Of a stretch of 32,000 bases of DNA, positions 1 through 20,143 are shown piece after piece (position 1 is the stretch's first letter; each line of letters opens with the position of its first letter). The position numbers and the translations under genes are program-made. The notes below the pieces were generated by a model. The model saw nothing but the letters and a program-made list of their open reading frames with translations, was not told the origin of the DNA and did no database searches. Location of the stretch: NCBI GenBank assembly GCA_021797495.1, contig JAJZZO010000001.1:15533-47532 (forward strand), written 5' to 3'. This DNA is from Candidatus Micrarchaeota archaeon. Lineage in GTDB: Archaea > Micrarchaeota > Micrarchaeia > Micrarchaeales > Micrarchaeaceae.

Positions 1-503
1 TGTATGTAATTTCCAGGGGTCGTTCCGCTCGGCACACCGAGACCGAAATAAATTATGCTGTTTGTGGCTGGTGTGCTAAGACTAGGAGCAGTTACTATCT
101 CGTTGGTATCAGCAAACGTCGTAGTGAGAGCGTTGCCTGCATACGAGGTCAATGATGTCGGGTTCCATAACGTGTTGCCAACGCTAAAAGTAACGGCAGT
201 ATTTGAAGTAAGTGCCCAAGAGGTGCCCTCCACGAGTATGTTAGCACCTATATTGCCTCCACTGTCCGTATCTGTTACGGGCACATTAGTGTTGTAGGAT
301 GTCCCTGGAAAAATGCTCCCGAAGTTTATGACGTTGCCTCCGGTAGAATTGGTAACTGATAAATATATGACATTGCCGACGTTGACGTTCGCAGCCAATG
401 CGGTGTTGCTGCTTGCATAGCTGAAGTGCAACGCCTGGAATGAAAATACAATCATCACTGCAAACGCAATAATTAATGATGTAAGTACAATCGCTGTTCT
501 CAT
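1..503 (-). CDS. Secreted beta-sandwich protein, N-terminus in window and C-terminus off the left edge; paralog of the C-terminal domain of the adjacent 1148-aa protein
   Basis: Absent from the ORF track because no stop lies in the window. ATG at 503 on the minus strand, with the frame checked codon by codon and open to position 1. MRTAIVLTSLIIAFAVMIVFSFQALHFSYA looks like a signal peptide. The mature part (INFGSIFPG..VTDTDSGGN..ILVEGTSW..FSVGNTLW..IYFGLGVPSGTTPGNY) aligns with aa ~1040-1140 of the 636..4082 product (IDFGTLYPN..VTDTNSGNT..ILVYGGNW..FGVSNTTW..IYFGLGIPDGAPDGHY). Supersedes track ORFs 55..297(+) and 286..516(-). Confidence 0.75.
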   Translation of the reverse strand, partial: MRTAIVLTSLIIAFAVMIVFSFQALHFSYASSNTALAANVNVGNVIYLSVTNSTGGNVINFGSIFPGTSYNTNVPVTDTDSGGNIGANILVEGTSWALTSNTAVTFSVGNTLWNPTSLTSYAGNALTTTFADTNEIVTAPSLSTPATNSIIYFGLGVPSGTTPGNYI

Positions 504-635
504 GAAGATCGTCCAATCAATAATGACAATATACATTTAAAAACTTATTTGCATCTAGCATCAGAAACACATAAGACAACTTAATGGTGTAAAAGGTAAA
601 CCCACATACCCTACCTGCGACAAACTCACTTAATT

Positions 636-3600
636 TCAGCAGCTATTCTCTATCGTTATTGTCTGAGAATAATGTCCGTCAGGCGCTCCATCAGGTATCC
701 CGAGACCGAAGTATATATCATTGCTTGAGGAAGCGGGTACCAATATCAGGGTATTGGTTGCAGTAGTAGAAAGCCTATTTGCGGGGAATGCAGCGTCGCT
801 GGTAGCTGCCCAAGTGGTGTTGCTCACTCCAAACGAGGTAGGTCCTATCCAGTTACCTCCGTAAACAAGGATTGATGCTTGTGTATTCCCAGAATTTGTA
901 TCTGTAACTGTTTCATCTGTTGGAATTGCCTGGTTCGGATACAAAGTTCCAAAATCTATGGTGTTCGGTGTTACTGATATTGTGCATGTTGACGTTATAG
1001 AATTAGATTTAAAATCTGCGGTTATTGTGCCATTGCCCGCAATTGTTAACGTCGTCGAGTCGGAATTTAGGTTTGCCACTGTCAAATTGATAGAATTAGT
1101 CACTTCCCAATTACTAAATGTATAACCGGGCGGGGGATTTGCAGTTATATTATAAGTTCCGATAAGTTCAGCTGATTGTCCATTTGTATATGATGTTGTA
1201 TTCAGTGTTATAGTTCCGTTACTTGGATTATCATCAAAAAAAACTTTATAAGGGGGAAATACATACGATGCCATTGAATAAGAAGAGTTACCGGACGGTG
1301 TAACTTCAGAGTTATACGAACCCGAATTCTGCCTACAGGCATATATTACAGTTTGTGCTGAACTTAAAGAAGTTAATGAATTACTAATCAAAGCGCAACT
1401 CGGAGGAACAGCCATAGAACTAAAATGATATGGTGTTACTGACTCAGCTAATATGACGAAGCTATTATTCTTTTGCACTGTATAGCTTAAGTTTTCAGAG
1501 ATTCCAGACAAACCACTTTTGTCGAATACATTCCCATTTTGTAATAGCACATCAGCCCCGATACCACTTAGTGAGAGATTGGATGGGTAATTTCCATAAA
1601 TCACAGTACCTACATTTTCTGTGCTGTGACCTATATTTGTCATGTTAAATCCGTATTCCTTGGAAATACATACTAGTAAATTTAATGTTTTTAAACCACC
1701 GTAGCCATTATATGGATTATTTAATAAATTAAAATTTGACTTTGAAAATATTACATTTTTACTGATTTTTGGATTGTTAGCAACTGTAGTGGTAGTAATT
1801 GTTGGGCAAAATTCATTTTCGTATGTATAGTTAGTTGTTGTTGACCAGTTATCTTCGAATGGCACCGGAGGAGTCAATAAAACTGCAGTTATGCCACCAT
1901 ATAAGTAAAAGTAGGTTTTATAATTTGGTTTTAAGATTAACGACAGTGGTGTGCTGGTTCCAGTAGTAGTATTTCCATAAGTTATATACTCATTTGAATA
2001 TATTGTAGTAAGCACTGTAGAGGTAGTAGATGTAGATGTTGTAGAGGTAGTAGATGTAGATGTAGATGTTGTAGAGGTAGTGAATGAAACATTAAGCGTA
2101 TTACTAGAAATAAGGTTGCCACTGGATGGTGATGGTACATAAGTAGTTCCAGATACAACCTGATTGGGGATTGTGTAACCATATGTACCAGGAGATGTAA
2201 AGAATTTTATAGTATTTGTAATGCTGAAGTTAAGTACTCCGTTATACGTCACGTTCCATTTTGAACCACTAGGAAGCCCTGTTTCTGTGAATGATGCCAC
2301 ACTATTCCAACTAGCAGTCACAATACCATTACCCATCACAGTTAAATTAGTTGTAGGAACAGTGCTTGATGAAAGAGTAAGGTTGGAATTACTAACAGTC
2401 CAGCCATTGAATACATAAGATCCTGTAGCTGGAGGATTTGCTGTCAATGTATTTGTGCCTATGGCGTTCATCGCAGCGCCGCTAGCATATGTATTACCGT
2501 TTGTTGCTATTGTTGCGGTGCTCGGGTTATCATTTAGTACTACGTGATATTCTGGGAATACATACGCCGCCATGGCAGATTGCGTGCTCGTTCCTACTGT
2601 AATGCCAGCGGTTTGCGAACCTGCAGCGGCTATGGTGCATATGGCAGCAATAGAAGATGTGATTGTGCTGTTGACATCCTGCTCTGTGGTGCATCCAGCA
2701 GGGAAAGATGTAGCTGTTATTTTGCTGCCTGCGGAATCAGCGAGAAGAACCACAAAACTATTGCTTGTGAGCGTTGTGAATGCAAGGCTCGGTGCCGTGG
2801 TGGTGTTGGTCTTGCTTGTGAAAATTACCCCGTTGTTAGCTAATATAACATTTGCACCTACGCCAGCGAGGGAAATATTATAAGAAGTTGCGCCTCCGAC
2901 AAGGAATACGCTTGCAGTGTCGTTTGTCGTATGGCCTATTATCGAGGAATTGGAGTTTCGGCCAGCTGGCTTCCCTCCAGTGACGAGCTCCTGTATGATT
3001 ACATCTTCGTTCACGTTAAATGATGGCGTCGCGCCGTTAACGCCACCCTCTTCTGCTCCTGTACCAAAGAAATATGCAGGATACCCAGAAGCCAGAGTGA
3101 GTGTGGTGCTGTTAGTGGTTGCTGTGGCGCCGCCAGTTACAAATCCAACTGCATATGTCGAAAGGGAGTTCGATACTGCAGAGTAGGTATAATAGGTCGC
3201 GCTTCTCCCTACAAAAGATGTCGGCAATGCCCGCCATCCATTATTATAATACTTGAAAAGCCTTATGTTGCCGTTTCCAGTGTGCTGAGCAGTTACCCAC
3301 GATCGAGTAACATTGAAAGTATATATGACGTTGGATATGTTCCTATCCAGATTTGCTGGCTCGGTTATTTTTATGTACCTGTAAACACCACTGGGAACCG
3401 GAACTCCTTCTGGATTGTTTGTGCTTGTATTAACCACTATGTTGGCAGCCATTCCTGATTTCATACTTATGTCTATACTGTCAAGTAATGTTGAATTGAA
3501 TGGTATTTTTTGCGAAAGGGCATTGTTTAGATATATGCTCGCTGGCAATCTTTCACCTTGCCGAATGGTTGTTGTAGGCGTTACGATGGAGGTTGTGGTG

Positions 3601-4082
3601 CTCTTAGATGTGGTAGATATGGAAGTCGTAGTCGAAGTAGAAACAGCGTTATAGGTCACTGAATTTGACGCTATCACTGCTTTTGAGTCCTCGATTGCTG
3701 CTTTGACTACGAATATCCCACTGCCCCATAAGGTGTTCTGCGTGAACGAGAGCGTATTTGACGTTGAATTTACTTCGGTATATAATGTATTTGCGACTTC
3801 AGTGTTTGAACTATTGTATATGGTAAAATTATACGAGTACGGTGGCACTCCGCCTATAACATTTGCTGTAAGAATTTCATTGCTTCCGGAGTAAAGCACG
3901 TTAGCACTAAGGTCAAGATGCACTGTAAACGCCGGACTATTGGGTTCCTGGAATGTTGCTTGAGTAGGGCTCAATATCTGCTGAGCTGGCACTGCAAGGA
4001 CTAAAGCTAGCATCGTAAAAAACAGCATCTTCGACGCGAAATTTGGTTTCATCGTATCATTCGGATATTGAAAGCAAAACAT
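636..4082 (-). CDS. Large secreted multi-domain surface glycoprotein: PKD/Ig-like, PGF-pre-PGF-like, two copies of a ~300-aa module each ending in an InlB-B-repeat-like unit, and a C-terminal beta-sandwich
   Basis: 1148-aa ORF; the more likely start is ATG 4052, giving signal peptide MKPNFASKMLFFTMLALVLAVPAQQ. Domain motifs: GGVPPYSYNF (PKD-like); YRYIKITEP..IRLFKYYNNGWRALPT..STYAVG (PGF-pre-PGF-like); FTETGLPSGSKWNVTYNG (repeat type seen in Sulfolobales/Thermoplasmatales surface proteins). Duplicated modules lie at aa ~325-595 and ~700-1025 (GHTTNDTASVFLVGG / GHSTENVGTVIYGN; VFPEYHVVLNDNPS..ANPPATGSYVFNGWTV / VFPPYKVFFDDNPS..ANPPPGYTFSNWEV). It also has Ser/Thr linkers and dozens of N-x-S/T sequons. 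Confidence 0.9.
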   Translation of the reverse strand: MFCFQYPNDTMKPNFASKMLFFTMLALVLAVPAQQILSPTQATFQEPNSPAFTVHLDLSANVLYSGSNEILTANVIGGVPPYSYNFTIYNSSNTEVANTLYTEVNSTSNTLSFTQNTLWGSGIFVVKAAIEDSKAVIASNSVTYNAVSTSTTTSISTTSKSTTTSIVTPTTTIRQGERLPASIYLNNALSQKIPFNSTLLDSIDISMKSGMAANIVVNTSTNNPEGVPVPSGVYRYIKITEPANLDRNISNVIYTFNVTRSWVTAQHTGNGNIRLFKYYNNGWRALPTSFVGRSATYYTYSAVSNSLSTYAVGFVTGGATATTNSTTLTLASGYPAYFFGTGAEEGGVNGATPSFNVNEDVIIQELVTGGKPAGRNSNSSIIGHTTNDTASVFLVGGATSYNISLAGVGANVILANNGVIFTSKTNTTTAPSLAFTTLTSNSFVVLLADSAGSKITATSFPAGCTTEQDVNSTITSSIAAICTIAAAGSQTAGITVGTSTQSAMAAYVFPEYHVVLNDNPSTATIATNGNTYASGAAMNAIGTNTLTANPPATGSYVFNGWTVSNSNLTLSSSTVPTTNLTVMGNGIVTASWNSVASFTETGLPSGSKWNVTYNGVLNFSITNTIKFFTSPGTYGYTIPNQVVSGTTYVPSPSSGNLISSNTLNVSFTTSTTSTSTSTTSTTSTSTTSTVLTTIYSNEYITYGNTTTGTSTPLSLILKPNYKTYFYLYGGITAVLLTPPVPFEDNWSTTTNYTYENEFCPTITTTTVANNPKISKNVIFSKSNFNLLNNPYNGYGGLKTLNLLVCISKEYGFNMTNIGHSTENVGTVIYGNYPSNLSLSGIGADVLLQNGNVFDKSGLSGISENLSYTVQKNNSFVILAESVTPYHFSSMAVPPSCALISNSLTSLSSAQTVIYACRQNSGSYNSEVTPSGNSSYSMASYVFPPYKVFFDDNPSNGTITLNTTSYTNGQSAELIGTYNITANPPPGYTFSNWEVTNSINLTVANLNSDSTTLTIAGNGTITADFKSNSITSTCTISVTPNTIDFGTLYPNQAIPTDETVTDTNSGNTQASILVYGGNWIGPTSFGVSNTTWAATSDAAFPANRLSTTATNTLILVPASSSNDIYFGLGIPDGAPDGHYSQTITIENSC
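2017..2082 (-). repeat. Intragenic tandem repeat (24-nt unit, 30-nt unit, 12-nt partial unit) encoding a Thr/Ser linker
   Basis: Plus strand reads gtagaggtagtagatgtagatgtt (2017-2040), then gtagaggtagtagatgtagatgtagatgtt (2041-2070), then gtagaggtagtg (2071-2082). On the minus strand this encodes TSTTSTSTSTTSTTSTSTTST between the GLPSG domain and module 2. Confidence 0.85.
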
Positions 4083-4103
4083 TATTTATTTATGGGAACT
4101 GGG

Positions 4104-4877
4104 CTAATGCCTACGTCTGCCGCCGAACAGCAGGGAAAGCAAGCCGCGCCTGCGCATCGTCGGCACTTTCGAGCCAGGCACAGCATAATATGTCTTTGCC
4201 AGCTTATCTATTCCCTTCGAAAAGTTACATCTCCTGCTGTATAAATATGCAGGTATGTGATCCTCTATGCTGAGAGGTACGATGTCGTCTTCTGGCAGTT
4301 TCCCGGTAATCCTGTTCTCATACATCTCTTCTATTTCCTTATCATGGAGTTCATAGCGCTTGCCCTTTACCTTGTTGAGCACGAGCTTGTGCTCCAGGTG
4401 CATCCTGTCGAACCATGCCGTGAGCCTTACTATATTGGCTACGCTAGCCATCTCCGGAGTGGATACAAGCAGCGCTTCGTTATAATACTTCCCCATATGT
4501 TCTACAGCATAGCCAGGGGCGGTATCCACTATAACGAAGTCGTAATTGCTGTTCTTCACGATAGCAGTGAACCTTTGCATCATTTCGTTGTTTACTATGT
4601 ACTCTTCCTGCGTGAGCACACCCGGAACAACATGCAGTCCGGAAGGCGCATGCGCCACCCTTGCATTGACCAGCTTCACCTTGCCCATAAGCAGCTCTTT
4701 GACACCTGTATTCGAGTCCTCAATACCTAGGTGAAATCCAACGGATGGATTTACTGTGTCACCATCGATGAGTAGTACTTGATATCCGCTGCACTGCAAG
4801 GCTATGGATAAGTTAACGGCTACGGTGGTTTTCCCTACGCCGCCCTTTTGCGATGACACTCTTATCAGGTATGGCAT
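4104..4877 (-). CDS. MinD/ParA-family P-loop ATPase (archaeal MinD-like)
   Basis: Deviant Walker A SSQKGGVGKTTVAVNLS, then LLIDGDTVNPS, and a Walker B-like FVIVDTAPG. The C-terminal RRRGLLSLLFGGRRRH resembles an amphipathic membrane-targeting helix. Its stop lies 21-51 nt upstream of the 1148-aa gene start, depending on which start is used. Confidence 0.9.
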   Translation of the reverse strand: MPYLIRVSSQKGGVGKTTVAVNLSIALQCSGYQVLLIDGDTVNPSVGFHLGIEDSNTGVKELLMGKVKLVNARVAHAPSGLHVVPGVLTQEEYIVNNEMMQRFTAIVKNSNYDFVIVDTAPGYAVEHMGKYYNEALLVSTPEMASVANIVRLTAWFDRMHLEHKLVLNKVKGKRYELHDKEIEEMYENRITGKLPEDDIVPLSIEDHIPAYLYSRRCNFSKGIDKLAKTYYAVPGSKVPTMRRRGLLSLLFGGRRRH

Positions 4878-5011
4878 TCTATCAACATCTCATAACGGGA
4901 CTCAATGTATAAGTATGGGGTTAATATCTGAATGGCGAGCACTCGGACTTTGTTGAACGGTGTTCAATGCCTGTTTATCTTCACGAAAACCATCTGATGC
5001 CGGTTAGAACA

Positions 5012-6976
5012 TTACTTAGTTCTTCTCATAGCCTCGCGGAGCCGTTTCAGCTTTGCGGCCCTTTGTGAGCTGTACTTTGGCTTGTTCATCGATTTTGCAA
5101 CTGCAATACTAATTATAATAATAACTAAAAATATTATACCATACACTCCGTACACCCCGTAGGCTATCAACGGCGCCTTGTGTGCCTGCTGTGTTGCAGG
5201 TATGGTAGTTGTCGTAACAGGTGGCTTAGCAAGCACCATCAGAGGTATCTCATAGCTCAGGTTTGCACCGATAGTCCCGATGTGCATGTTCATTATTGTA
5301 GTGCCTGCTGAACTAGGCTTGACTGCGAAGTTCTCTACGAATACGCTGTTTGGGGTGGCATTTACACGCTGCGTTGAATTGTATATTATTACGTCTGAAG
5401 GACCTGTTAGGTATGCGATCACGCTTTGCGGCACTATGCCACTGTAAAAGGCTGTAAGTGCTATGGTATTCTCTGTGCCTGCATAAAAAGTCGGTGCGCT
5501 TATGGATAAAACTCTCAATATGCTTGACGGAATGGCAGTTGAAGGTGCGGCTATTACTTCAGCAACGTGCGCCAGCGAGGGATAGTTCATCATATTTGCC
5601 AGAGTGAAGTATGCATATGTACTGGAATTCTTAGGCAGCGCTCCTATATACCAATTTATGACGTAACTTCCGTTAACAGTGCTTATAAAATGGGGAAGGC
5701 CGTATGCGCTTATATGCGAGCTGTTTTTCACAACACTACTAGGTATTATGGTCTTCACTACAACATTTGTCAGGTTTTTTGTTGTTGGATTGTTTATAAT
5801 CACGACACCAGTGGCATTGTTTGTATTGTTCACAAGCGTTATGCTATGCACTGCGGAAGCAAACATGGGATGGGATACCTCAAGAGTCACATAAAGCGTT
5901 TCTTTTGTGACAGTTTGTCCTATGCCTACTGTTACATTCACAGGTATTATGTACTGCCCCTGCGATAAGGTATTTGCCGCTGACACAACAGTGCTGATCC
6001 CTACTGTTTGTTTCGGTTCTATCGAGAGGTTTGTTGCAGATAAGCCCAACATACTTGAGTATACTGGGGCGACAGCGAAATCCACATATTCTGTGGCATT
6101 GCCATCGTTTCTTATACTCACAATCTCGGATTTGGAACTGCCAGTGAACAGCGAGACCAAGAACGGGAAGGCTAGCAAGGAAAACTTTGGTATTTGTATA
6201 AACGGTTCCGAAACCGGTTGACTGGTCCGCGGTGCAGAGACTGTATAGTTTATGCTGGCATATTTGCTTTGCGGAATTTTGTTAACTAAATATGTTATGT
6301 TAAGGATTGCGCGATACTTACCTGGCAATCGCGTAGAGTTGTATGATGTGACTGTAAAGCTATGGGTTTGCGAGGGAAGCAGCGAATAGTTAGATGGTAT
6401 TATTATTACTGAATCCACCGGTCCTGTAATGCGTATACGCACGTTTATAGAATTTGCTAAGGCGTAACTGCCCGTGTTATTGATTGTGAAGTAAAAATAT
6501 TGAGGACTGCGCTGCATGATGTTCTGGCTCGTGTTGAAGCTCGTTATATTAATGTTTGCCTGTTTGTATACGCGTATTGTGGCATTTTGCGTATTTGTAA
6601 AGTTAGCATATGAGAACAATAGCTTAGCTGTGTAATTGCCTGCAGGAACAGTGCTTGCGTCGAACTTGAAATTATATGGTACTGGGTTTTCGCTAACGTT
6701 TATGCTGCTGATTGGAAGAGTATATACCGAAGTGCCGTTGGATTCCAAGATAGAAAAATAGCCATTCATGTCATGTATAGTGCAATTGTAAGACGTGTAT
6801 ATTGTAAAGTTGCCAATCTGGTTAGAACTGGATGTATATACCGGATGAGCGCCTAGCCTGAGTATGAAAGGGCACTGCACTGTAACTCCTGCATTGAGCC
6901 CTGTTTGGTTTGAGCCATAAGCAAAACTGGAGATAGCGAGCAAACCCAATACTAACACTGCCAATGATGTATGCAT
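5012..6976 (-). CDS. C-terminally membrane-anchored surface glycoprotein with repeated CARDB/NEW3-like beta-sandwich domains (S-layer-like candidate)
   Basis: Signal peptide MHTSLAVLVLGLLAISSFAYG. Repeated motifs of the kind YFYFTINNTGSYAL, EIVSIRNDGNATEYVDF and GQYIIPVNVTV. Many N-x-S/T sequons. A Thr-rich stalk PPVTTTTIP is followed by a TM helix (IAYGVYGVYGIIFLVIIIISIAVA) and a basic tail KSMNKPKYSSQRAAKLKRLREAMRRTK. Confidence 0.8.
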   Translation of the reverse strand: MHTSLAVLVLGLLAISSFAYGSNQTGLNAGVTVQCPFILRLGAHPVYTSSSNQIGNFTIYTSYNCTIHDMNGYFSILESNGTSVYTLPISSINVSENPVPYNFKFDASTVPAGNYTAKLLFSYANFTNTQNATIRVYKQANINITSFNTSQNIMQRSPQYFYFTINNTGSYALANSINVRIRITGPVDSVIIIPSNYSLLPSQTHSFTVTSYNSTRLPGKYRAILNITYLVNKIPQSKYASINYTVSAPRTSQPVSEPFIQIPKFSLLAFPFLVSLFTGSSKSEIVSIRNDGNATEYVDFAVAPVYSSMLGLSATNLSIEPKQTVGISTVVSAANTLSQGQYIIPVNVTVGIGQTVTKETLYVTLEVSHPMFASAVHSITLVNNTNNATGVVIINNPTTKNLTNVVVKTIIPSSVVKNSSHISAYGLPHFISTVNGSYVINWYIGALPKNSSTYAYFTLANMMNYPSLAHVAEVIAAPSTAIPSSILRVLSISAPTFYAGTENTIALTAFYSGIVPQSVIAYLTGPSDVIIYNSTQRVNATPNSVFVENFAVKPSSAGTTIMNMHIGTIGANLSYEIPLMVLAKPPVTTTTIPATQQAHKAPLIAYGVYGVYGIIFLVIIIISIAVAKSMNKPKYSSQRAAKLKRLREAMRRTK

Positions 6977-7280
6977 TGCATCAACCTACTATTCAAGCGA
7001 AAAAACTAAAACGATATATACGGCGCAAAAATGCCATATGCTACGTTGCATATGTCCTGTGGCAATGGGGATAATATCTTGAAAGGCAATACCTTCCTAA
7101 AGCATTGATGGCATTACGCTCTACCAGAATATGGGAGATGAACTCCACCTCCAACAATTATAATGGGAAAGACTAAGAACGTTGAAGGTGATAGATGATT
7201 ATTGACTGCACAACGGCTAGCTTGTCGTTAAGAAGTTAACATAACGGGATGTCCTTGTACATGAATAGCGCTCCGGTGTT

Positions 7281-8327
7281 TTGTTGATAGAGGTCAGCTC
7301 TGGGTTCATAAGTGGACTATACGCTTCGGTTTATGGCTATCTCCTGCACTATATGCCGCAGCTGTTTGCTAACGTCCTTTCATTCATAATAGCATTTGCG
7401 GTATTCGCTGTGCTCCTTGCAATACTAATAGTGCTGTTCGTCTATATGTTCGGCTGGGGCGAAAGGAAGATAATGGGCCGCATGCAGTCCAGGCACGGGC
7501 CGACTTACACTGGCCCTTTCGGCATACTCCAGAATATGGCAGACGTGCTCAAGCTCCTTACAAAAGAGAATATAGTGCCGAAAAACGCAGACATGCCGTT
7601 ATTCGGTATGATACTTCCGATAGTATATGCGTTTTTCGTTTTCGCTTTGGCCTTCATACCTTTAACAGGCACATTCGTTGGCATAAACACCTCGCTGGCA
7701 CTTATAGCCGTGTTTCTGGTATTATCATTCATACCAATACTGATTTTCCTTGCAGGGTGGACAAGCGGCAACAAATTCGGTTCTATAAGCGCTCAAAGGT
7801 CGGTCATAATGCTGGTTAGCTACGAACTCCCTCTGATATTGGTTGTGGCTTCCGTGGCAATCGCAGCCCACAGTTTTTCATTCATAAACATAGTTTCTTC
7901 ACAGTCGCACATATGGTATGCCATAGCTCTGCCCATAGGATTTGTTCTGTTTTTCGTAATAATGCTGGCCGAGCTGGAAAGGCCACCATTTGACATCAGA
8001 GAAGCAGACAATGAGCTTATAGCAGGGTGGCTTACCGATGTCAGCGCGCCATATTACGGACTCGCCCTTTTCCTTGATTATACGCGCATGTTTACCGGAA
8101 CGCTTCTCATAACCATACTGTTCCTTGGCGGTTGGAACGGTCCGATACTTCCGCCCTTCGCATGGACCATGATAAAGGTAATAATATTAACGGTGTTCAT
8201 CATAGTGATAAGGGCTACAACAGTGAGGATGACGCTGAGAAGGCTCTTGAAAATAGGGTGGCTTTACCTTCTGCCGCTTGCAGTAATAAACATTTTGGCT
8301 TCATATATAATATTTGTGTGGTTCTGA
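7281..8327 (+). CDS. nuoH: NADH-quinone oxidoreductase subunit H
   Basis: GWGERKIMGRMQSRHGPTYTGPFGILQNMADVLKLLTKE and ELERPPFDIREADNELIAGW are NuoH/ND1 signatures; multi-TM. The track start is TTG 7281; the in-frame ATG at 7353 gives a more typical N-terminal length. Confidence 0.93.
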   Translation: MLIEVSSGFISGLYASVYGYLLHYMPQLFANVLSFIIAFAVFAVLLAILIVLFVYMFGWGERKIMGRMQSRHGPTYTGPFGILQNMADVLKLLTKENIVPKNADMPLFGMILPIVYAFFVFALAFIPLTGTFVGINTSLALIAVFLVLSFIPILIFLAGWTSGNKFGSISAQRSVIMLVSYELPLILVVASVAIAAHSFSFINIVSSQSHIWYAIALPIGFVLFFVIMLAELERPPFDIREADNELIAGWLTDVSAPYYGLALFLDYTRMFTGTLLITILFLGGWNGPILPPFAWTMIKVIILTVFIIVIRATTVRMTLRRLLKIGWLYLLPLAVINILASYIIFVWF

Positions 8328-8692
8328 TGACCGTTATAAAAGGGATTTACGAGGTGGGAAAGCAGCTTCTTAAAAAACCGTCCACTTTGGAATATCCTGA
8401 GAAAAAGGAAAACCTTGCGGACAACTACAGGGGCATACACAAGCTCGATATGGAAACGTGTATAAGCTGCGCTGCGTGTGCAAGGATATGCCCCAACCAG
8501 ACGATAGACATGGTAGATACCGAAACTGCCAAGGGGACGAAAAAGATGCCGCAGATAAACCTCGAACGCTGCCTTTTCTGCGCGTTGTGCGAAGAGGTCT
8601 GCCCACCTCAATGCCTAATACTCACGAAAGACTACGAATACGAAGCATATGACAGGAGGGACTACGTGCGCCGCCCTGAGGATCTGCAATGA
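8327..8692 (+). CDS. nuoI: NADH-quinone oxidoreductase subunit I (2x[4Fe-4S] ferredoxin-type)
   Basis: Two CxxCxxCxxxCP motifs (CISCAACARICP, CLFCALCEEVCP). The ATG at 8327 overlaps the nuoH stop (TGATG). The track start 8132 would overlap nuoH by about 200 nt and is rejected. Confidence 0.92.
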   Translation: MTVIKGIYEVGKQLLKKPSTLEYPEKKENLADNYRGIHKLDMETCISCAACARICPNQTIDMVDTETAKGTKKMPQINLERCLFCALCEEVCPPQCLILTKDYEYEAYDRRDYVRRPEDLQ

Positions 8693-8701
8693 GGCCTTGA
8701 G

Positions 8702-9184
8702 TTGTACGATATAACGATATACATACTTGCGATAACCGCAATATTCGAATTCGCAGCGATAGCGTTCGTATTCATATCCAAAAGCCTGCTGCATTCCGTC
8801 ATAAGCCTTACCCTCGCGTTTATTGTAAACTCCGCGCTATTTTTGGTAATGGGGCAACCCTTTCTTGCCATAATACAGTTATTCATATTTGTCGGAGGCA
8901 TTTCAACATATGCGCTGGTCGGGGTGGCATCCTCAAGCTTTTCCAAGTTTCCGCATACCAACAAGGCGGCGTTCGTAGCGGTTTTTGTCATATTCCTGGC
9001 TGTGATATCCTATCCGTTACTCACTGCGAATATTTCAAGCATTGGAACGAGCGCCTTTACCCCATTGCAGGTAAAAATCGGCATAACGAATTATATGGGA
9101 CTTTTCTATCTCATAACCGCGATGCTTTTTGGGGTGGCAATCTCAGCCATAATACTGTTCAAGTCGTTAGGGCGGTTGAAATGA
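8702..9184 (+). CDS. nuoJ: NADH-quinone oxidoreductase subunit J
   Basis: 160-aa, 5-TM protein in the nuoI-nuoK slot. Contains QPFLAIIQLFIFVGGISTYALVG, typical of NuoJ/ND6. TTG start. Confidence 0.85.
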   Translation: MYDITIYILAITAIFEFAAIAFVFISKSLLHSVISLTLAFIVNSALFLVMGQPFLAIIQLFIFVGGISTYALVGVASSSFSKFPHTNKAAFVAVFVIFLAVISYPLLTANISSIGTSAFTPLQVKIGITNYMGLFYLITAMLFGVAISAIILFKSLGRLK

Positions 9185-9480
9185 TAGAGCAGCTTTTCAT
9201 AATAATAAGTTTTGCCGTATTCGCCCTTGGGGTAGCTGGCATAGTGTCGAGCCGCAATATAGTTATAATGCTGCTGTCTACGGAAGTCATACTCTTATCG
9301 GCGACGCTTCTTGCTGTTGTATTCTTCAATTTTAATGCAGGAGGAGAGATACTGCCATTGCTGTTCACAATATGGGCCATAGCAGCAGCCGAGGCGATAA
9401 TGGTGATAGTGTTCTACAGGTATCTGGTTTCAAGCAAGTCGAGCCTTGACATAAAGGTGCTTTCCAAACTGAGGGAATGA
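9181..9480 (+). CDS. nuoK: NADH-quinone oxidoreductase subunit K
   Basis: 99 aa, 3 TM. Contains LLSTEVILLSATL and IAAAEAIMVIVFYRY (NuoK/ND4L pattern). Its ATGA overlaps the nuoJ stop. Confidence 0.88.
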   Translation: MIEQLFIIISFAVFALGVAGIVSSRNIVIMLLSTEVILLSATLLAVVFFNFNAGGEILPLLFTIWAIAAAEAIMVIVFYRYLVSSKSSLDIKVLSKLRE

Positions 9481-9481
9481 A

Positions 9482-11248
9482 ATGCTGACATTGCTCATAA
9501 TATTGCCGCTTCTTGCAGCCTCTTTCCTAGTACTGCTCACGTACGGAAGGGAGAAGTACACCGGTCCGTTAGTCCTTGCGGGAAGCCTCATCACATCGCT
9601 GATGATACTTTACGCTTCTATGAGCTCCTTCGGCAAAATACAGGAGCTTAACTGGTTCGGCATATCTGGATACACCATACACATAACCACGCAGCTGCTC
9701 CCGTTAAACGTAATACTGTCGCTTCTTATAGGGCTCATAACGCCTCTCATAATGTTCTACTCCATGGGTTACATGGAATACAAGACCGAAAGGCCGAGGT
9801 TCTTCTTCGAAATGGGGATATTTGCTTCGTCAATGCTGCTGTTCGCGATTGCCGGAAACTTCATAACAATGTTCATAGCGTGGGAAATGCTCGGTATAAC
9901 AAGCTATCTATTGATAGGCTTCTGGTACAAAAGGGAAAACGCACCGTATGCCGCCAGGAAGTCAATATCCACTATAATAATAGGGGATTTTGCTATGCTT
10001 GCGGCAATGCTCATCATATGGTCATCATACCATACCTTCAGCTTCGCCTCTATACTTGCCTCTCCGTCGTCGTTGTATCTCTCCATAGCCATGTTCATGG
10101 TACTGATCGCATGCTTCACGAAATCTGCGCAGTTCCCATTCCACGAATGGCTTTCGGACGCAATGGAAGGCCCAACTCCAGTTTCTGCATTCCTACACTC
10201 ATCCACGATGGTGAAGGCTGGTGTATTTCTTGTTCTCGTGCTGTTCCCGCTTTTCATGAAAGCCGGTTTGTCCGAACTGATACTGGCAATAGGTATAATA
10301 TCCGCGGTTTTGGGCGCATCCAATGCTATATCCTCGCACCATGTCAAGAAGATACTTGCATACTCTACCATAGAAGACCTTGGCCTGATGTTCGTTGCCA
10401 TAGGGCTGCATGCCATAGTCGCTGCTGTTTTGTTCTTCATAGTTCAGGCATTCTACAAGGCTCTGCTCTTCATGTCAGCCGGATCGATAATGCGCGCCAA
10501 CAACGAGGAAGAGGACATATACAAGCTTTATGGCTCGGCAAAAAGGAAACTCCTCTACATACCCACGGTTATAGGGGTTTTGTCCATAGCCGGGATATTC
10601 CCCTTAAGCGGCTTCTTCGGAAAGGCGGCGATAGATACAGCTGCGGCATCAAATGCGTATGCCTACATTATCCTTGTCATAATAGATTTTGCAACTAGCG
10701 CTTACATATTCCGTTGGTTATTCATACATTCCAGAAAGCCCTCAAAATCTGCAGCGGTTGACTATTCAAAAATACCGAAGAGCATGGTTTATGCCGGAGT
10801 TATAGCATCAATATTGGTTGTATTGGCAGCGTTCGCTTTTTTTGACATGGGCAGCGTCCAATCATATTCGGATTATTCATTGTCTATTTCGATAAGCGTT
10901 ATCGATTCCATAATAGAGACTGCGGCTGTCGCTTTCGGGCTTGTGGTATCATATCTGCTGTTTATGAAGGCTAAACCCACTGGCGAGATAAGGACAAAGG
11001 CTTACTATATACTGTTCAACAGCGTAGCGATCAATGCCGCATATCTGTACATATCAAAAGCGGTGATGTATTTCGCTGAGGGAATCAGCGTAATAGACGA
11101 ACTGATTTATGGGTTCTTCGCTTCAGGTGGCGAGGGGCTCCTTGCCATATCTGACAAGTTGAGGAAAATAGTCACAGGGGATTCTAACAATTACCTTATA
11201 GCGTTTGTAGCAGGTATAATACTGATAATATTGCTGCTGTTGGTGTAA
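9482..11248 (+). CDS. nuoL: NADH-quinone oxidoreductase subunit L (antiporter-like)
   Basis: FIAWEMLGITSYLLIGFWY, KSAQFPFHEWLSDAMEGPTPVSAFLHSSTMVKAGVFL and a long C-terminal extension fit the NuoL/ND5 family. Starts 1 nt after the nuoK stop. Confidence 0.92.
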   Translation: MLTLLIILPLLAASFLVLLTYGREKYTGPLVLAGSLITSLMILYASMSSFGKIQELNWFGISGYTIHITTQLLPLNVILSLLIGLITPLIMFYSMGYMEYKTERPRFFFEMGIFASSMLLFAIAGNFITMFIAWEMLGITSYLLIGFWYKRENAPYAARKSISTIIIGDFAMLAAMLIIWSSYHTFSFASILASPSSLYLSIAMFMVLIACFTKSAQFPFHEWLSDAMEGPTPVSAFLHSSTMVKAGVFLVLVLFPLFMKAGLSELILAIGIISAVLGASNAISSHHVKKILAYSTIEDLGLMFVAIGLHAIVAAVLFFIVQAFYKALLFMSAGSIMRANNEEEDIYKLYGSAKRKLLYIPTVIGVLSIAGIFPLSGFFGKAAIDTAAASNAYAYIILVIIDFATSAYIFRWLFIHSRKPSKSAAVDYSKIPKSMVYAGVIASILVVLAAFAFFDMGSVQSYSDYSLSISISVIDSIIETAAVAFGLVVSYLLFMKAKPTGEIRTKAYYILFNSVAINAAYLYISKAVMYFAEGISVIDELIYGFFASGGEGLLAISDKLRKIVTGDSNNYLIAFVAGIILIILLLLV

Positions 11249-11250
11249 CC

Positions 11251-12669
11251 ATGTTCCCTGTATTCTTTATCATGCTCGCCATTCTCGGCATCGCAGGCAT
11301 AGCGTCTGCGTTGTCCAACAGTTATAAACAAGCCAAGGACATAGCCATAGTCTTAAGCGGCATCGTTCTTCTTCTTGCACTGTATTCCGTTTTTCTGGCG
11401 CTATCGGTGAAAGGCTTCATCGGAAGCACGGAATCCATGGCGTACATAAGCCAATTCGGAATATACCTATCGTTTTCCGCCACGCAGTTCGGCATAATAC
11501 TGGCGCTTCTCGCATCCATAGTTTCTTTCTTAGCATCGATTGCAGTATCAAGCAAGTTTGAAAACAGCAAGAATCTTTATCCTCTTATAATGCTGTTCGA
11601 ATTTTCCGCGATAGGCCTATTCGTATCAGCAAACCTTTTCATATTCTACGTGTTCTGGGACATAGGCGTTGCAGCATCATATTTCCTGATAAGCTCTTTT
11701 GGAAAGGGCGAAAACAAGCATGCAGCCAACACCTTCCTGATATACTCCATATTCGCTAGTGCCGTGCTGCTGTTCGGAATAATGCTGATATATTTCTACA
11801 CTCCGGTGCACTCCTTTGATATAAGCTACATCACATCTCACAGTTATCTCATACCAACTGCGCTACAAGGAACAATATTCATACTTTTATTCATAGCTTT
11901 CATGGTAAAGATGCCGATATTCCCGTTCCATTCCTGGATGGCAAACGCATATTCAGAGGCCCCAACGCAGGGATCGATGCTGATATCTGGAGTGTTGTCA
12001 AAATTCGGTGCATACGGGATGCTTCTGCTGTTTTCCATGCTGACCTTCTCTTACGGGTTTGCCAAATACGCCTTTGTCCTGGGTTCGGTATCAGCCTTCT
12101 ATGCGGCTTTCGTTGTCATGCGCCACAAGGATCTAAAACGCATAATAGCATATTCAAGCATGCTTGAGTCCGGGATAATTCTTGTCGGGATATCATCGCT
12201 CAACGCCTTTGGCACAGCCGGTGCGGTTTACCTGATGCTCGCCCACGGGCTCGTCATGGCGCTAATGTTCGCTGTAATAGGCGGTATAGAAATATCATAC
12301 GGCAACCGGAATATAACCGTATTAAAGGGCATAGTAAAAGATTCGGTGGGTTCCGCATACTCCTTCCTCATAGGCACATTTGCCTCTACGGGCATACCTT
12401 TGACTGCGGGGTTCATAGCTGATGTCCTTGTGTTCATAGGTGCGATAAACGCCTACGGCCTTTATGGTGCCATACCCATCTTCAGCATAATGCTGTTGGG
12501 CTTCTACCTGTATTATGCCATAAACAAGTCATTCCTTTCGACAAGGGAATCTTCGGAGAGCATAGCGAGGCTTCCGAGGCAGATGGCAGTAACATACGCC
12601 TTGGCGATTCTTGCAATATTCGCATTTGGCATATTCCCGTATGTAATAATTTCGCTGTTCGGTCTATGA
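11251..12669 (+). CDS. nuoM: NADH-quinone oxidoreductase subunit M (antiporter-like)
   Basis: FYVFWDIGVAASYFLI, KMPIFPFHSWMANAYSEAPTQGSMLISGVLSKFGAYG and RIIAYSSMLESG match the NuoM/ND4 pattern. Position between L and N. Confidence 0.9.
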   Translation: MFPVFFIMLAILGIAGIASALSNSYKQAKDIAIVLSGIVLLLALYSVFLALSVKGFIGSTESMAYISQFGIYLSFSATQFGIILALLASIVSFLASIAVSSKFENSKNLYPLIMLFEFSAIGLFVSANLFIFYVFWDIGVAASYFLISSFGKGENKHAANTFLIYSIFASAVLLFGIMLIYFYTPVHSFDISYITSHSYLIPTALQGTIFILLFIAFMVKMPIFPFHSWMANAYSEAPTQGSMLISGVLSKFGAYGMLLLFSMLTFSYGFAKYAFVLGSVSAFYAAFVVMRHKDLKRIIAYSSMLESGIILVGISSLNAFGTAGAVYLMLAHGLVMALMFAVIGGIEISYGNRNITVLKGIVKDSVGSAYSFLIGTFASTGIPLTAGFIADVLVFIGAINAYGLYGAIPIFSIMLLGFYLYYAINKSFLSTRESSESIARLPRQMAVTYALAILAIFAFGIFPYVIISLFGL

Positions 12670-20058: not shown

Positions 20059-20143
20059 GCTTAGCGATTGCCAATTCCATATTTTGAACCCGCGACCGTC
20101 AGCTTAGAAGGCTGCTGCTCTGTCCAAGCTGAGCTACGGGCCC
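20036..20143 (-). tRNA. tRNA-Arg (anticodon UCU) with a ~33-nt intron in the T-loop
   Basis: Minus strand reads GGGCCCG-TA-GCTC-AGCTTGGACA-GAGC-A-GCAGC-CTTCTAA-GCTGA-CGGTC-GCGGG-TTCAAA..[intron]..T-CCCGC-CGGGCCC-G. The 7-bp acceptor stem is perfect (20143-20137 with 20043-20037). The T stem GCGGG (20093-20089) pairs with CCCGC (20048-20044), but 40 nt lie between the arms instead of 7. No CCA is encoded. Confidence 0.85.

What the first reader, a model, noticed from the sequence alone, without database searches (positions are those of the whole stretch)
1..6976. Co-directional surface locus: MinD/ParA ATPase embedded between three sequon-rich secreted or anchored proteins
Four minus-strand genes form a compact block: a 654-aa C-terminally anchored multi-beta-sandwich glycoprotein, a MinD/ParA ATPase, a 1148-aa secreted mosaic protein, and a secreted single-domain paralog of its C-terminus.

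The ATPase stop lies only 21-51 nt from the giant gene's start, which suggests co-transcription. The ATPase ends in an Arg-flanked amphipathic segment (RRRGLLSLLFGGRRRH), like the membrane-targeting helix of MinD.

Archaeal MinD homologs are known to position surface machineries such as archaella and chemosensory arrays in haloarchaea. No secretion ATPase, prepilin peptidase, class III signal peptide or sortase-type signal is present here.

A positioning ATPase hard-wired to a giant adhesin-like protein, a putative polymerisable subunit and a membrane anchor is not a described archaeal appendage system. It could be a cell-cell attachment or filament module. That function is inference.
Basis: partly seen in the sequence, partly recalled or inferred. 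Interest (0 to 1): 0.75.

Follow-up and report, generated by a model that had tools for sequence, protein, structure and literature searches.

The report
Micrarchaeota surface-protein module with MinD ATPase
A gene set found only in the tiny host-dependent Micrarchaeota archaea links a membrane-binding MinD-type ATPase to membrane-anchored and secreted Ig-domain surface proteins. It is undescribed and is a testable candidate for how these cells build or place a host-contact structure.

Summary
The four minus-strand genes are real. They are part of a five-gene module; the fifth gene and half of the fourth lie beyond the window start.

The module contains:
- a 654-aa stalk of five Ig domains with a C-terminal TM helix and a conserved cytoplasmic helix ("anchorA")
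- a MinD-type ATPase with a conserved MinD-like C-terminal amphipathic motif
- a variable giant glycoprotein
- a 328-aa secreted protein made of two copies of the giant's C-terminal Ig domain
- a 250-aa TM-anchored ASH-type Ig protein with a polybasic tail

The same set recurs in about 70 loci from Micrarchaeota genomes, in different flanking contexts. This includes the cultured Ca. Micrarchaeum A_DKE. AnchorA is followed by the MinD gene in 36 of 40 cases, often with overlapping stop and start codons.

No type IV filament, sortase or usher genes are linked. All non-ATPase parts are annotated "hypothetical".

The small subunit's best structural matches are chaperone-usher pilins, though weakly. 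A conserved N-terminal strand motif is shared by the small subunits, their interdomain linker and anchorA, but is absent from the giants. This suggests strand-complemented assembly.

My best reading is a MinD-coupled surface adhesin or fibre complex. Function is inferred, not shown. Interest 0.7.

The parts
5012..6976 (-). anchorA: 654-aa sequon-rich surface stalk. It has a signal peptide, five Ig-like (ASH/MG-type) domains, a Thr-rich linker, a TM helix and a cytoplasmic helix.
   Evidence: ORF. AF2 model has mean pLDDT 66.6, five beta-sandwich blocks, and helices 605-629 and 637-653. Foldseek matches tandem ASH/MG Ig arrays. Orthologs are present in 40+ loci.
6869..6913 (-). Mature N-terminal motif of anchorA (SNQTGLNAGVTVQCP). 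It is shared with the small subunits.
   Evidence: A29, V31, V33, C35 and P36 are invariant. The motif is conserved phylum-wide. It is the only stretch aligned by hhalign between the anchorA and p328 profiles. It has low pLDDT in the monomer model.
5090..5164 (-). TM helix of anchorA (residues 605-629).
   Evidence: Predicted helix in the AF2 model; hydrophobic stretch in all orthologs.
5015..5089 (-). Conserved cytoplasmic tail of anchorA (P-K-Y-x3-R-A-x2-L-K-R-L-R-E-x-M-R-R). It is the candidate docking or activating peptide for the ATPase.
   Evidence: P633, Y635, R639, A640, L643, R647, E648 and R652 are invariant. The same motif occurs in about 40 loci. Modelled as helix 637-653. The binding role is inferred.
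4104..4877 (-). MinD-type P-loop ATPase (257 aa).
   Evidence: Pfam ParA/AAA_31/CbiA hits. TIGR01969 minD_arch scores 113.7 bits against a cutoff of 201.75. PDB best hits are archaeal MinD. 293 homologs; every source-named one among the 120 listed is from Micrarchaeota-type MAGs.
4824..4856 (-). Deviant Walker A motif SSQKGGVGKTT, including the signature lysine K11.
   Evidence: Invariant in 22 family members.
4107..4154 (-). C-terminal amphipathic segment RRRGLLSLLFGGRRRH. It is the putative membrane-targeting sequence.
   Evidence: The motif character is conserved after a variable linker, e.g. GFLRRLFRW, GVLSRLFGRR, GFWRRILHRF. Hydrophobic moment is 0.41 for the 11-mer. Membrane binding was not tested.
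636..4082 (-). Giant secreted glycoprotein (1148 aa; probable start at 4052 gives 1138 aa). It is the variable cargo or tip.
   Evidence: ORF. 33 sequons. PGF-pre-PGF domain and two InlB-type B-repeats. Its body shares only about 38-40% identity with orthologs whose ATPases are 60-75% identical to the window's. Related giants range from 700 to more than 4600 aa.
3147..3497 (-). PGF-pre-PGF domain (residues 196-312) in the giant.
   Evidence: TIGR04213, E 8.8e-13, above the curated cutoff.
1002..1223 (-). InlB-type B-repeat (residues 954-1027). A second weaker copy lies near residues 556-595.
   Evidence: Pfam Flg_new_2, E 4.6e-10. TIGR02543 for the second copy, sub-threshold (E 0.0033, 17.7 bits vs cutoff 20.95).
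639..1028 (-). C-terminal Ig domain of the giant (STCTISV...TITIENSC). It has the same domain type as the small subunits and ends in Cys as the last residue.
   Evidence: 48% identity to p328 domain 2. All domains of this type end in Cys. 708 cluster representatives carry it, always at the extreme C-terminus.
1..503 (-). 5' part (167 codons) of the 328-aa small-subunit gene (p328). It covers the signal peptide, the N-terminal strand motif and domain 1. The rest lies outside the window.
   Evidence: AF2 mean pLDDT 90.9. Foldseek top hits are CfaB, CfaE, LpfD and CsuE pilins.
372..413 (-). Mature N-terminal motif of p328 (SSNTALAANVNVGN).
   Evidence: A38 is invariant and V42 is 90% or more conserved. 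The same motif occurs at the N-termini of single-domain subunits and in the interdomain linker, and is absent before the giants' domain.
7011..7020 (-). TATA-like box (TATATATCGT) about 41 nt upstream of the anchorA ATG.
   Evidence: Read directly from the sequence. Promoter function was not tested.
4083..4094 (-). A/T-rich TATA-like box (ATAAATAAATAA) just after the ATPase stop, about 36 nt upstream of the ATG at 4052.
   Evidence: Read directly from the sequence. It suggests the giant gene may have its own promoter.

Best explanation
This is a Micrarchaeota-specific, Sec-exported cell-surface complex whose membrane anchor is coupled to a cytoplasmic MinD-type ATPase.

Shown:
- Five gene families travel together across the phylum. 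They are anchorA, the MinD-type ATPase, the small Ig subunit(s), the p250 anchor and, usually, a giant glycoprotein.
- The giant and the small subunits share a C-terminal Ig domain. An N-terminal Cys and a Cys as the very last residue are conserved together in it.
- AnchorA carries an invariant cytoplasmic helix.
- The ATPase has intact ATP-binding motifs and a conserved MinD-like C-terminal amphipathic motif.

Inferred:
- The variable giant is the exposed adhesin or cargo.
- Its C-terminal domain joins to the small subunits and to anchorA through the conserved N-terminal strand motif, which would insert into the neighbouring Ig domain as in chaperone-usher pili and archaeal threads. I put this step at about 0.4.
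- The ATP-bound MinD dimer sits on the membrane through its C-terminal motif and binds the anchorA tail. It thereby clusters, positions or gates the complex, by analogy with TadZ/CpaE, FlhG, BcsQ and haloarchaeal MinD4.
- The likely biological role is contact with the Thermoplasmatales host or with biofilm partners.
For: - Gene order is conserved at 44-75% ATPase identity with unrelated flanks.
- 73 loci were found from the small subunit alone, all Micrarchaeota. AnchorA is followed by minD in 36/40 cases; minD is preceded by anchorA in 35/39; a small subunit is followed by p250 or another subunit in 69/75.
- AnchorA and minD frequently overlap or abut.
- There are several anchorA-minD pairs per genome, including two within 20 kb in cultured A_DKE.
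- The anchorA tail motif is invariant.
- The ATPase motifs and C-terminal motif are conserved.
- The p328 model is high-confidence (pLDDT 90.9) and its top PDB matches are chaperone-usher pilins, including donor-strand-complemented CfaB fusions.
- The strand motif is shared by the small-subunit N-termini, the p328 linker and the anchorA N-terminus, and is absent in the giants. It is the only similarity hhalign finds between anchorA and p328.
- The motif is unpaired or low-confidence at free N-termini but forms a strand in the linker.
- In domain 1 the two Cys are either both present or both absent.
- The giant body diverges fastest. Orphan giants with the same C-terminal domain occur elsewhere in the same genomes.
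- A look-alike gene run in A_DKE is transcribed at typical housekeeping level, TPM 0.93-1.40 (PMC8975820 Suppl. Data S5).
Against: - There is no experimental datum on any of these proteins.
- Fold similarity to pilins is weak (TM 0.41-0.48), and generic Ig folds score nearly as well.
- I could not inspect model coordinates, so strand pairing is inferred from the DSSP strings only.
- The domain has its own C-terminal strand, probably disulfide-linked to strand A. It may therefore be a complete Ig fold with no acceptor groove.
- One A_DKE module lacks a small subunit.
- TATA-like boxes lie before each gene, so the genes may be separate transcripts.
- The ATPase could serve a general cellular role.
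- The anchorA model has only moderate confidence (pLDDT 66.6, 9-sequence alignment).
Confidence: 0.5

Rival explanations
1. The proteins form a non-filamentous display complex. The shared C-terminal Ig domain is a docking module, comparable to cohesin-dockerin or a sorting domain. It attaches diverse cargo proteins to the anchors by ordinary domain-domain contacts. There is no strand exchange and no polymer. MinD still acts on the anchor.
For: - The domain always lies at the extreme C-terminus of many different giants, including unlinked ones.
- The paired Cys suggest a closed, complete fold.
- Small-subunit copy number is low and fixed at 1-3.
- One A_DKE module has none.
Against: - It does not explain the conserved N-terminal strand motif shared with anchorA and the p328 linker but missing in the giants.
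- It does not explain why the top fold hits are donor-strand-complemented pilin fusions.
Confidence: 0.25
2. The ATPase is a housekeeping MinD/ParA for division-site or chromosome positioning. Its neighbourhood with surface-protein genes has no mechanistic meaning.
For: - Sequence and fold are canonical MinD-like.
- In two loci FtsZ and Rad50 genes flank the module.
Against: - Adjacency to anchorA holds in 35/39 cases across different contexts, often with overlapping codons.
- There are multiple copies per genome, each with its own anchorA.
- It falls well below the archaeal MinD family cutoff, 113.7 against 201.75 bits.
- No MinC or MinE genes are linked.
- Recent work attributes archaeal division-site placement to the unrelated Arco system (bioRxiv 10.64898/2026.07.23.738820).
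Confidence: 0.1
3. The module is an S-layer accessory set. The giant and anchorA would act like Sulfolobales SlaA and SlaB (lattice plus TM stalk), or they would anchor the known Micrarchaeota S-layer protein.
For: - The architecture matches SlaB: signal peptide, beta-sandwich domains and a C-terminal TM helix. The partner is a large glycosylated protein.
- In A_DKE a look-alike gene run (Micr_00289-00294) includes the S-layer gene Micr_00292 and abuts AglB.
- The S-layer paper proposes an unidentified TM stalk (10.1101/2021.04.28.441871).
Against: - No PF05123/TIGR01564 S-layer domain is present in any module protein.
- No S-layer gene appears in the other loci annotated.
- Giants vary from 700 to more than 4600 aa and are sometimes absent, which is unlike a lattice protein.
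- In A_DKE the run is transcribed about 100-fold lower than slp.
Confidence: 0.1
4. It is an accessory cluster of a type IV filament (TFF) system encoded elsewhere. This would resemble TFF subsystem 4G, which couples a MinD-like ATPase with Ig-rich adhesin-like proteins.
For: [quoted passage not shown]
Against: - No TFF ATPase, platform protein or prepilin peptidase occurs in any of the flanks inspected.
- The small subunits have Sec-type signal peptides with an A-x-A-like site after the hydrophobic region. They lack the class III [KR][GA] motif.
Confidence: 0.05

Closest known systems
MinD/ParA-type positioning ATPases of surface machines (TadZ/CpaE, FlhG, BcsQ; Haloferax MinD4 for archaella and chemosensory arrays)
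   Same: It has the deviant Walker A P-loop fold and a C-terminal amphipathic membrane motif. It is genetically coupled to a cell-envelope structure (MinD4 role cited).
   Different: The partner is a single-pass Ig-stalk protein with a conserved cytoplasmic helix, not a pilus platform, flagellar switch or synthase. No MinC, MinE or FlhF genes are linked. It scores below the minD_arch family cutoff.
Archaeal TFF subsystem 4G (Pyrobaculum/Thermoproteus): a MinD-like ATPase plus large Ig-rich adhesin-like proteins (bioRxiv 10.64898/2026.04.22.720090)
   Same: A MinD-like ATPase co-occurs with large Ig-rich surface proteins.
   Different: Subsystem 4G has type IV pilins, an assembly ATPase and a platform protein. 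None of these is linked here, and the subunits are Sec-type rather than class III.
Bacterial chaperone-usher pili (CFA/I CfaB/CfaE, Csu, Lpf)
   Same: These are the best structural matches of the small subunit. The logic is also similar: a tip protein lacking the N-terminal strand motif, subunits carrying it, and PapD-like/ASH-type Ig domains in the anchored proteins.
   Different: There is no sequence homology, no usher or outer membrane, and no two-domain soluble chaperone. The system is anchored by TM helices and linked to a cytoplasmic ATPase. TM-scores are only 0.41-0.48.
Archaeal donor-strand filaments: Sulfolobus threads (Saci_0406), bundling pili (AbpA), cannulae and haloarchaeal Tat-fimbriae
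   Same: They use Sec- or Tat-exported Ig or jelly-roll subunits, with no type IV machinery and small gene clusters (PMC9715654; list).
   Different: No sequence relation was detected. None of those clusters is reported with a MinD/ParA ATPase or a TM anchor carrying a conserved cytoplasmic helix.
Split BY-kinase arrangement CapA/CapB
   Same: A membrane protein whose C-terminal cytoplasmic tail is encoded directly upstream of a MinD-fold ATPase. CapB-type chains appear among the PDB hits.
   Different: The ATPase has no C-terminal tyrosine cluster, and there is no polysaccharide co-polymerase domain.
Sulfolobales SlaA/SlaB S-layer pair
   Same: A large glycoprotein is paired with a beta-sandwich stalk that has a C-terminal TM anchor, and the genes are adjacent.
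   Different: The known Micrarchaeota S-layer protein is a PF05123 protein unrelated to the giant. The giant is hypervariable and optional.

Membership tests
MinD/ParA (SIMIBI) ATPases | Deviant Walker A (K-GGxGK[ST]) with signature lysine, Walker A' and Walker B aspartates | tested here: met
   SSQKGGVGKTT, D38/D40 and D118 are invariant. Pfam ParA, AAA_31 and CbiA score above cutoff.
MinD proper (archaeal TIGR01969 / bacterial TIGR01968) | Score at or above the curated family cutoff | tested here: not met
   113.7 bits against 201.75, and 78.4 bits against 212.9. It is a divergent MinD-like subfamily.
MinD proper | C-terminal amphipathic membrane-targeting helix | tested here: inconclusive
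   The motif G-[FLIV]-[WLF]-x-R-[LI]-[LF] flanked by basic residues is conserved. It resembles the E. coli MinD C-terminus as I recall it. Membrane binding was not tested.
MinD proper | Works with MinC/MinE or another defined partner | tested here: not met
   No MinC or MinE genes occur in any locus. The candidate partner is instead the anchorA tail, which is an inference.
Chaperone-usher pili | Pilin Ig fold lacking its last strand, completed by a neighbour's N-terminal strand | tested here: inconclusive
   Top fold hits are pilins but weak. The N-terminal motif distribution fits. Coordinates were not inspectable and no multimer model was possible.
Chaperone-usher pili | Outer-membrane usher and soluble two-domain PapD chaperone | tested here: not met
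   No such genes are present. Only single or tandem ASH/PapD-like Ig domains occur, on TM-anchored proteins.
Type IV filament (TFF) systems | Class III signal peptide, secretion ATPase, platform protein and prepilin peptidase | tested here: not met
   None is present in the window or the inspected flanks. Subunit N-termini lack the [KR][GA] class III site.
Archaeal thread / bundling pilus / TasA-like subunits | Sequence or profile homology to Saci_0406, AbpA or TasA | tested here: not met
   There are no PDB sequence hits with the single sequence or the profile. No such structures are among the top 50 Foldseek matches.
Archaeal S-layer proteins (PF05123/TIGR01564) | S-layer N-terminal domain | tested here: not met
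   No hit in the giant, the anchors or the subunits.
Archaeosortase/PGF-CTERM substrates | C-terminal PGF-CTERM sorting signal | tested here: not met
   The giant has a PGF-pre-PGF domain but ends ...TITIENSC with no PGF-CTERM.
BY-kinases (CapB/Wzc) | C-terminal tyrosine cluster | tested here: not met
   The C-terminus is an Arg-flanked amphipathic motif with no Tyr cluster.

The most novel reading that the evidence does not exclude
Micrarchaeota build a previously unseen kind of archaeal surface fibre. A hypervariable giant tip adhesin is joined by donor-strand-type complementation to one to three pilin-like Ig subunits. These join to a five-Ig stalk whose TM anchor ends in a cytoplasmic helix read by a membrane-bound MinD ATPase. 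A cytoplasmic ATP switch would then place or license a Sec-dependent, usher-less fibre at the host contact site. This would be the attachment organelle of these obligate episymbionts.
Probability: 0.3. Interest if true: 0.85.

Novelty: new variant of a known kind. Interest (0 to 1): 0.7.

Why it matters
How DPANN archaea recognise and hold on to their hosts is a central open question. For Micrarchaeota no attachment machinery has been named.

This module is phylum-wide and multi-copy, and it has a fast-evolving exposed component on a conserved base. That is the pattern expected for host-range determinants. It is present in the cultured Ca. Micrarchaeum harzensis A_DKE, so antibodies, surface proteomics and cryo-ET can test it directly.

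It would also extend the repertoire of MinD/ParA "cargo". The new cargo would be a single-pass surface protein with a dedicated cytoplasmic peptide.

If strand complementation holds, it would add an ATPase-coupled member to the small set of archaeal non-type-IV filaments.

Tried and rejected
- Pfam, NCBIfam and PDB sequence or profile searches on anchorA, p328 and p250 gave no family. They returned only weak ASH-type Ig hits.
- The Foldseek search with the anchorA model returned only generic tandem-Ig proteins such as Hydin, CFAP65 and alpha-2-macroglobulin. It is uninformative beyond the fold.
- A self-BLAST of the giant did not detect the internal duplication that is visible by eye.
- Pfam on six related giants found almost nothing.
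- Five literature searches found no description of this module. One of them was poorly specified.
- I looked for expression data for the L072 modules of A_DKE. The supplementary table is truncated before those genes. I could use only the look-alike run Micr_00289-00294, whose homology I could not verify.
- I rejected membership of BY-kinases, TFF pilins and PGF-CTERM substrates on tested features. For the known S-layer protein family I rejected only homology (no PF05123/TIGR01564 domain); an S-layer accessory or anchoring role remains a rival at 0.1.
- I did not do a phylogenomic placement of the MAG. NCBI labels it "Candidatus Marsarchaeota archaeon". Its closest orthologs are almost all in Micrarchaeota-labelled genomes and in A_DKE.


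Full report
**Observation**

The window carries four co-directional minus-strand ORFs:
- 5012-6976 (654 aa)
- 4104-4877 (257 aa)
- 636-4082 (1148 aa; gene callers prefer the ATG at 4052, giving 1138 aa and a canonical signal peptide)
- an ORF starting at 503 that runs off the window

An exact-sequence look-up places the window in MAG GCA_023484695.1, contig JAMDAO010000018.1. It also supplies the DNA beyond the window start as locus L002. There the fourth gene encodes 328 aa, not a single domain. A fifth co-directional gene encodes a 250-aa protein. On the other side a nuoH-N operon is transcribed divergently.

**The parts**

*ATPase.* It matches Pfam ParA, AAA_31 and CbiA. It is closest to archaeal MinD, but scores 113.7 bits against a TIGR01969 cutoff of 201.75. 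The best solved relatives are Pyrococcus and Archaeoglobus MinD. Across 22 family members the deviant Walker A SSQKGGVGKTT, D38/D40 and D118 are invariant. After a variable linker, the C-terminus always carries a G-[FLIV]-[WLF]-x-R-[LI]-[LF] segment flanked by basic residues. This resembles the E. coli MinD membrane-targeting sequence as I recall it.

*AnchorA (654 aa).* It has these features:
- a signal peptide
- an invariant mature N-terminus (…A-x-V-x-V-x-C-P-F)
- five predicted beta-sandwich domains
- a Thr-rich linker
- a TM helix (605-629)
- a cytoplasmic helix with invariant P633, Y635, R639, A640, L643, R647, E648 and R652

Foldseek finds only tandem ASH/MG-type Ig arrays. Sequon density is 4.1 per 100 aa, against 0.54 in other window proteins.

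*Giant.* It has 2.9 sequons per 100 aa, a PGF-pre-PGF domain and InlB-type B-repeats.

*p328.* It consists of two tandem copies of the giant's C-terminal domain. It is not sequon-rich.

*p250.* It has:
- a signal peptide
- an invariant mature N-terminus, QLGExAGQP
- one ASH-type Ig domain. Nine of 16 members hit Cep192_D6 and eight hit OCRL-ASH, and the profile hits CFAP65 at E 1e-5.
- a TM helix
- a 50-70-aa polybasic tail

**Is the arrangement meaningful?**

It is. ATPase homologs number 293 at E<=1e-10. Every one of the 120 listed that carries a source name comes from a MAG labelled Micrarchaeia, Micrarchaeota, Micrarchaeaceae or (one) Marsarchaeota.

I looked up the contigs of six homologs at 75, 60, 52, 49, 45 and 44% identity. 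Each sits directly after a 600-660-aa anchorA ortholog. Each is followed by a giant (996 to more than 4600 aa) and/or a ~325-aa and a ~245-aa protein. The flanks are unrelated: SOD and peptidase A4, Fic and TnpB, Rad50 and FtsZ, isoprenoid genes. BLAST confirms orthology.

I then searched independently from the small subunit in one genome per GTDB species. This gave 73 loci, all Micrarchaeota. One 2.7-kb contig binned as Gammaproteobacteria is probably a mis-bin. The set includes the complete genome of cultured Ca. Micrarchaeum A_DKE.

HMM scanning of all ORFs in these loci gave the following counts:
- anchorA followed by minD: 36/40
- minD preceded by anchorA: 35/39
- small subunit followed by p250 or another subunit: 69/75
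- loci holding all four families: 33. Many of the rest are cut short by contig ends.

AnchorA and minD frequently overlap or abut. The 134-nt gap in this window is an outlier.

The order is sometimes permuted (subunit-p250-anchorA-minD-giant) or split into divergent halves. Small subunits occur as one two-domain protein, two such proteins, or one to three single-domain ~175-aa proteins.

The giant is the variable element. It is absent from several loci, and orphan giants with the same C-terminal domain occur elsewhere in the same genomes. A_DKE has two anchorA-minD pairs within 20 kb, and one of its modules has no separate small subunit.

**The shared domain**

The p328 family has 109 hits, all annotated hypothetical. 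A profile search of 1.84 billion representatives finds 708 clusters. Among the 150 best hits listed there are three architectures: two-domain, single-domain, and giants with the domain at the extreme C-terminus.

Every domain ends in Cys as the very last residue ("ENSC" in 78 of about 105). Each also has a Cys about 128 residues upstream. In domain 1 of p328 the two Cys are either both present or both absent. This argues for an intradomain disulfide between the first and last strands.

AF2 with a 44-sequence alignment gives mean pLDDT 90.9. Foldseek against the PDB ranks chaperone-usher pilins first:
- donor-strand-complemented CfaB-CfaB fusions 3F85 and 3F84 (E 6e-8 to 2e-7)
- CfaE-CfaB
- LpfD
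- CsuE

However, TM-scores are only 0.41-0.48, and generic Ig domains follow closely. There is no sequence relationship to any solved structure.

**A strand motif that points to assembly**

A conserved segment, [ST]-x-N-[VTI]-[VIT]-x-A-x-[AV]-N-V-x3-C, lies immediately after the predicted signal-peptide cleavage site. It occurs at three places:
- the mature N-terminus of every small subunit
- the linker preceding domain 2 of p328
- the mature N-terminus of anchorA, as x-[IL]-x-A-[NS]-V-x-V-x-C-P-F

It is absent upstream of the giants' C-terminal domain.

Profile-profile comparison of anchorA and p328 aligns only these 13 residues and nothing else. In the AF2 monomer models the motif is unpaired or low-confidence at free N-termini, although it is invariant. 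The linker copy is modelled as a strand, residues 190-197.

This distribution matches chaperone-usher logic. The tip lacks the motif, the subunits and the anchor carry it, and an in-cis copy sits between fused domains.

It is suggestive only. I could not inspect coordinates or run multimer predictions. The probable disulfide may also mean the fold is already complete.

**Mechanism proposed**

Shown:
- co-inheritance of the five families
- the shared C-terminal domain
- the conserved cytoplasmic helix on anchorA
- the intact ATPase motifs and membrane-type motif

Inferred:
- The giant is displayed on the small subunits and anchorA.
- The ATP-bound MinD dimer on the membrane binds the anchorA tail and clusters, positions or gates the complex.
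- The role is contact with the host or biofilm.

The polybasic p250 tail is unexplained.

**Transcription**

Each gene has a TATA-like box 30-45 nt upstream of its start. Examples are TATATAT at 7014-7020 and ATAAATAAATAA at 4083-4094. Co-transcription is therefore not established.

In A_DKE a gene run with the same pattern reads as follows:
- Micr_00289, 669 aa, hypothetical
- Micr_00290, 249-aa MinD/FlhG, arCOG00589
- Micr_00291, 5095 aa
- Micr_00292, the S-layer protein
- Micr_00293, 709 aa
- Micr_00294, 175 aa

Genes 00289-00291 have TPM 0.93, 1.40 and 0.95. This is typical of housekeeping genes in that table, against 124.8 for the S-layer gene (PMC8975820 Suppl. Data S5). I could not verify that these proteins belong to the module's families.

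**Comparison with known systems**

- The ATPase is a MinD-like member of the ParA/MinD class but fails the MinD family cutoffs.
- The general principle of a ParA/MinD ATPase organising an envelope machine is known.
- The closest archaeal precedent is TFF subsystem 4G, which has a MinD-like ATPase plus Ig-rich adhesin-like proteins. That system is a type IV filament. No type IV component or class III signal peptide is linked here.
- Archaeal donor-strand filaments have no reported ATPase or TM anchor of this kind. These include threads, bundling pili, cannulae and Tat-fimbriae.
- The known Micrarchaeota S-layer protein is unrelated.
- I found no paper describing this module. That is limited to the library searched.

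**Verdict**

It is one of the most consistently conserved lineage-specific gene sets one could ask for.

It also needs re-centring on the anchorA-MinD pair and the small-subunit/p250 base, with the giant as exchangeable cargo.

I rate it a new variant of a known kind, namely MinD/ParA-organised surface structures. There is a 0.3 chance that it is a new class of strand-complemented, ATPase-coupled archaeal fibre.

Noticed in passing
window 20085-20143 (- strand): The Rfam tRNA model matches at 31.4 bits, just above its gathering score. The match spans only 59 nt for model positions 1-71. ARAGORN finds no tRNA anywhere in the window. It may be an unusually short or atypical tRNA.
   Followed up: no
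L002:15370-16122 and about 60 orthologs (just outside the window start): The p250 family carries a 50-70-aa cytoplasmic tail that is strongly Lys/Arg-rich. In nearly all loci it ends in a run of R/K. The mature N-terminus QLGExAGQP is nearly invariant. Neither feature is explained. The tail could bind nucleic acid or acidic lipid.
   Followed up: partly
window 7281-14073 (+ strand): Only the complex I genes nuoH-I-J-K-L-M-N are present as a block, divergent from the module. No nuoA-D or N-module genes are adjacent.
   Followed up: no
whole window / P0230: NCBI labels this MAG and several MAGs with similar isolate names (FK_Sedi bins) "Candidatus Marsarchaeota archaeon". The closest orthologs of every module gene are almost all in genomes labelled Micrarchaeota, Micrarchaeia or Micrarchaeaceae, and in cultured Micrarchaeum A_DKE. 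The taxonomic label is probably wrong.
   Followed up: partly
window 1001-2000: G+C drops to 0.346 within the 3' half of the giant gene, against 0.42-0.51 elsewhere in the window.
   Followed up: no
A_DKE genes Micr_00288-00294 (PMC8975820 Suppl. Data S5): In the cultured Micrarchaeon the S-layer gene (Micr_00292) lies inside a gene run that looks like a third copy of the module. The run sits directly next to the oligosaccharyltransferase AglB (Micr_00288). Homology was judged only from lengths and annotations.
   Followed up: partly
L002:16628-18337 (- strand), about 2.5 kb beyond the window start: A 569-aa, N-terminally anchored, very sequon-rich protein with a CARDB domain (E 1.9e-7) is encoded convergently just after the module. 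It is another uncharacterised surface protein.
   Followed up: no
L058 (CAZPPL010000063.1): A 2.7-kb contig carrying two small subunits and a p250 gene is binned in a "Gammaproteobacteria" MAG. This is almost certainly a binning error.
   Followed up: no
L047 (JAKAPJ010000002.1) 9292-13409: One genome has five single-domain small-subunit genes around the p250 gene. This is the largest expansion seen.
   Followed up: no
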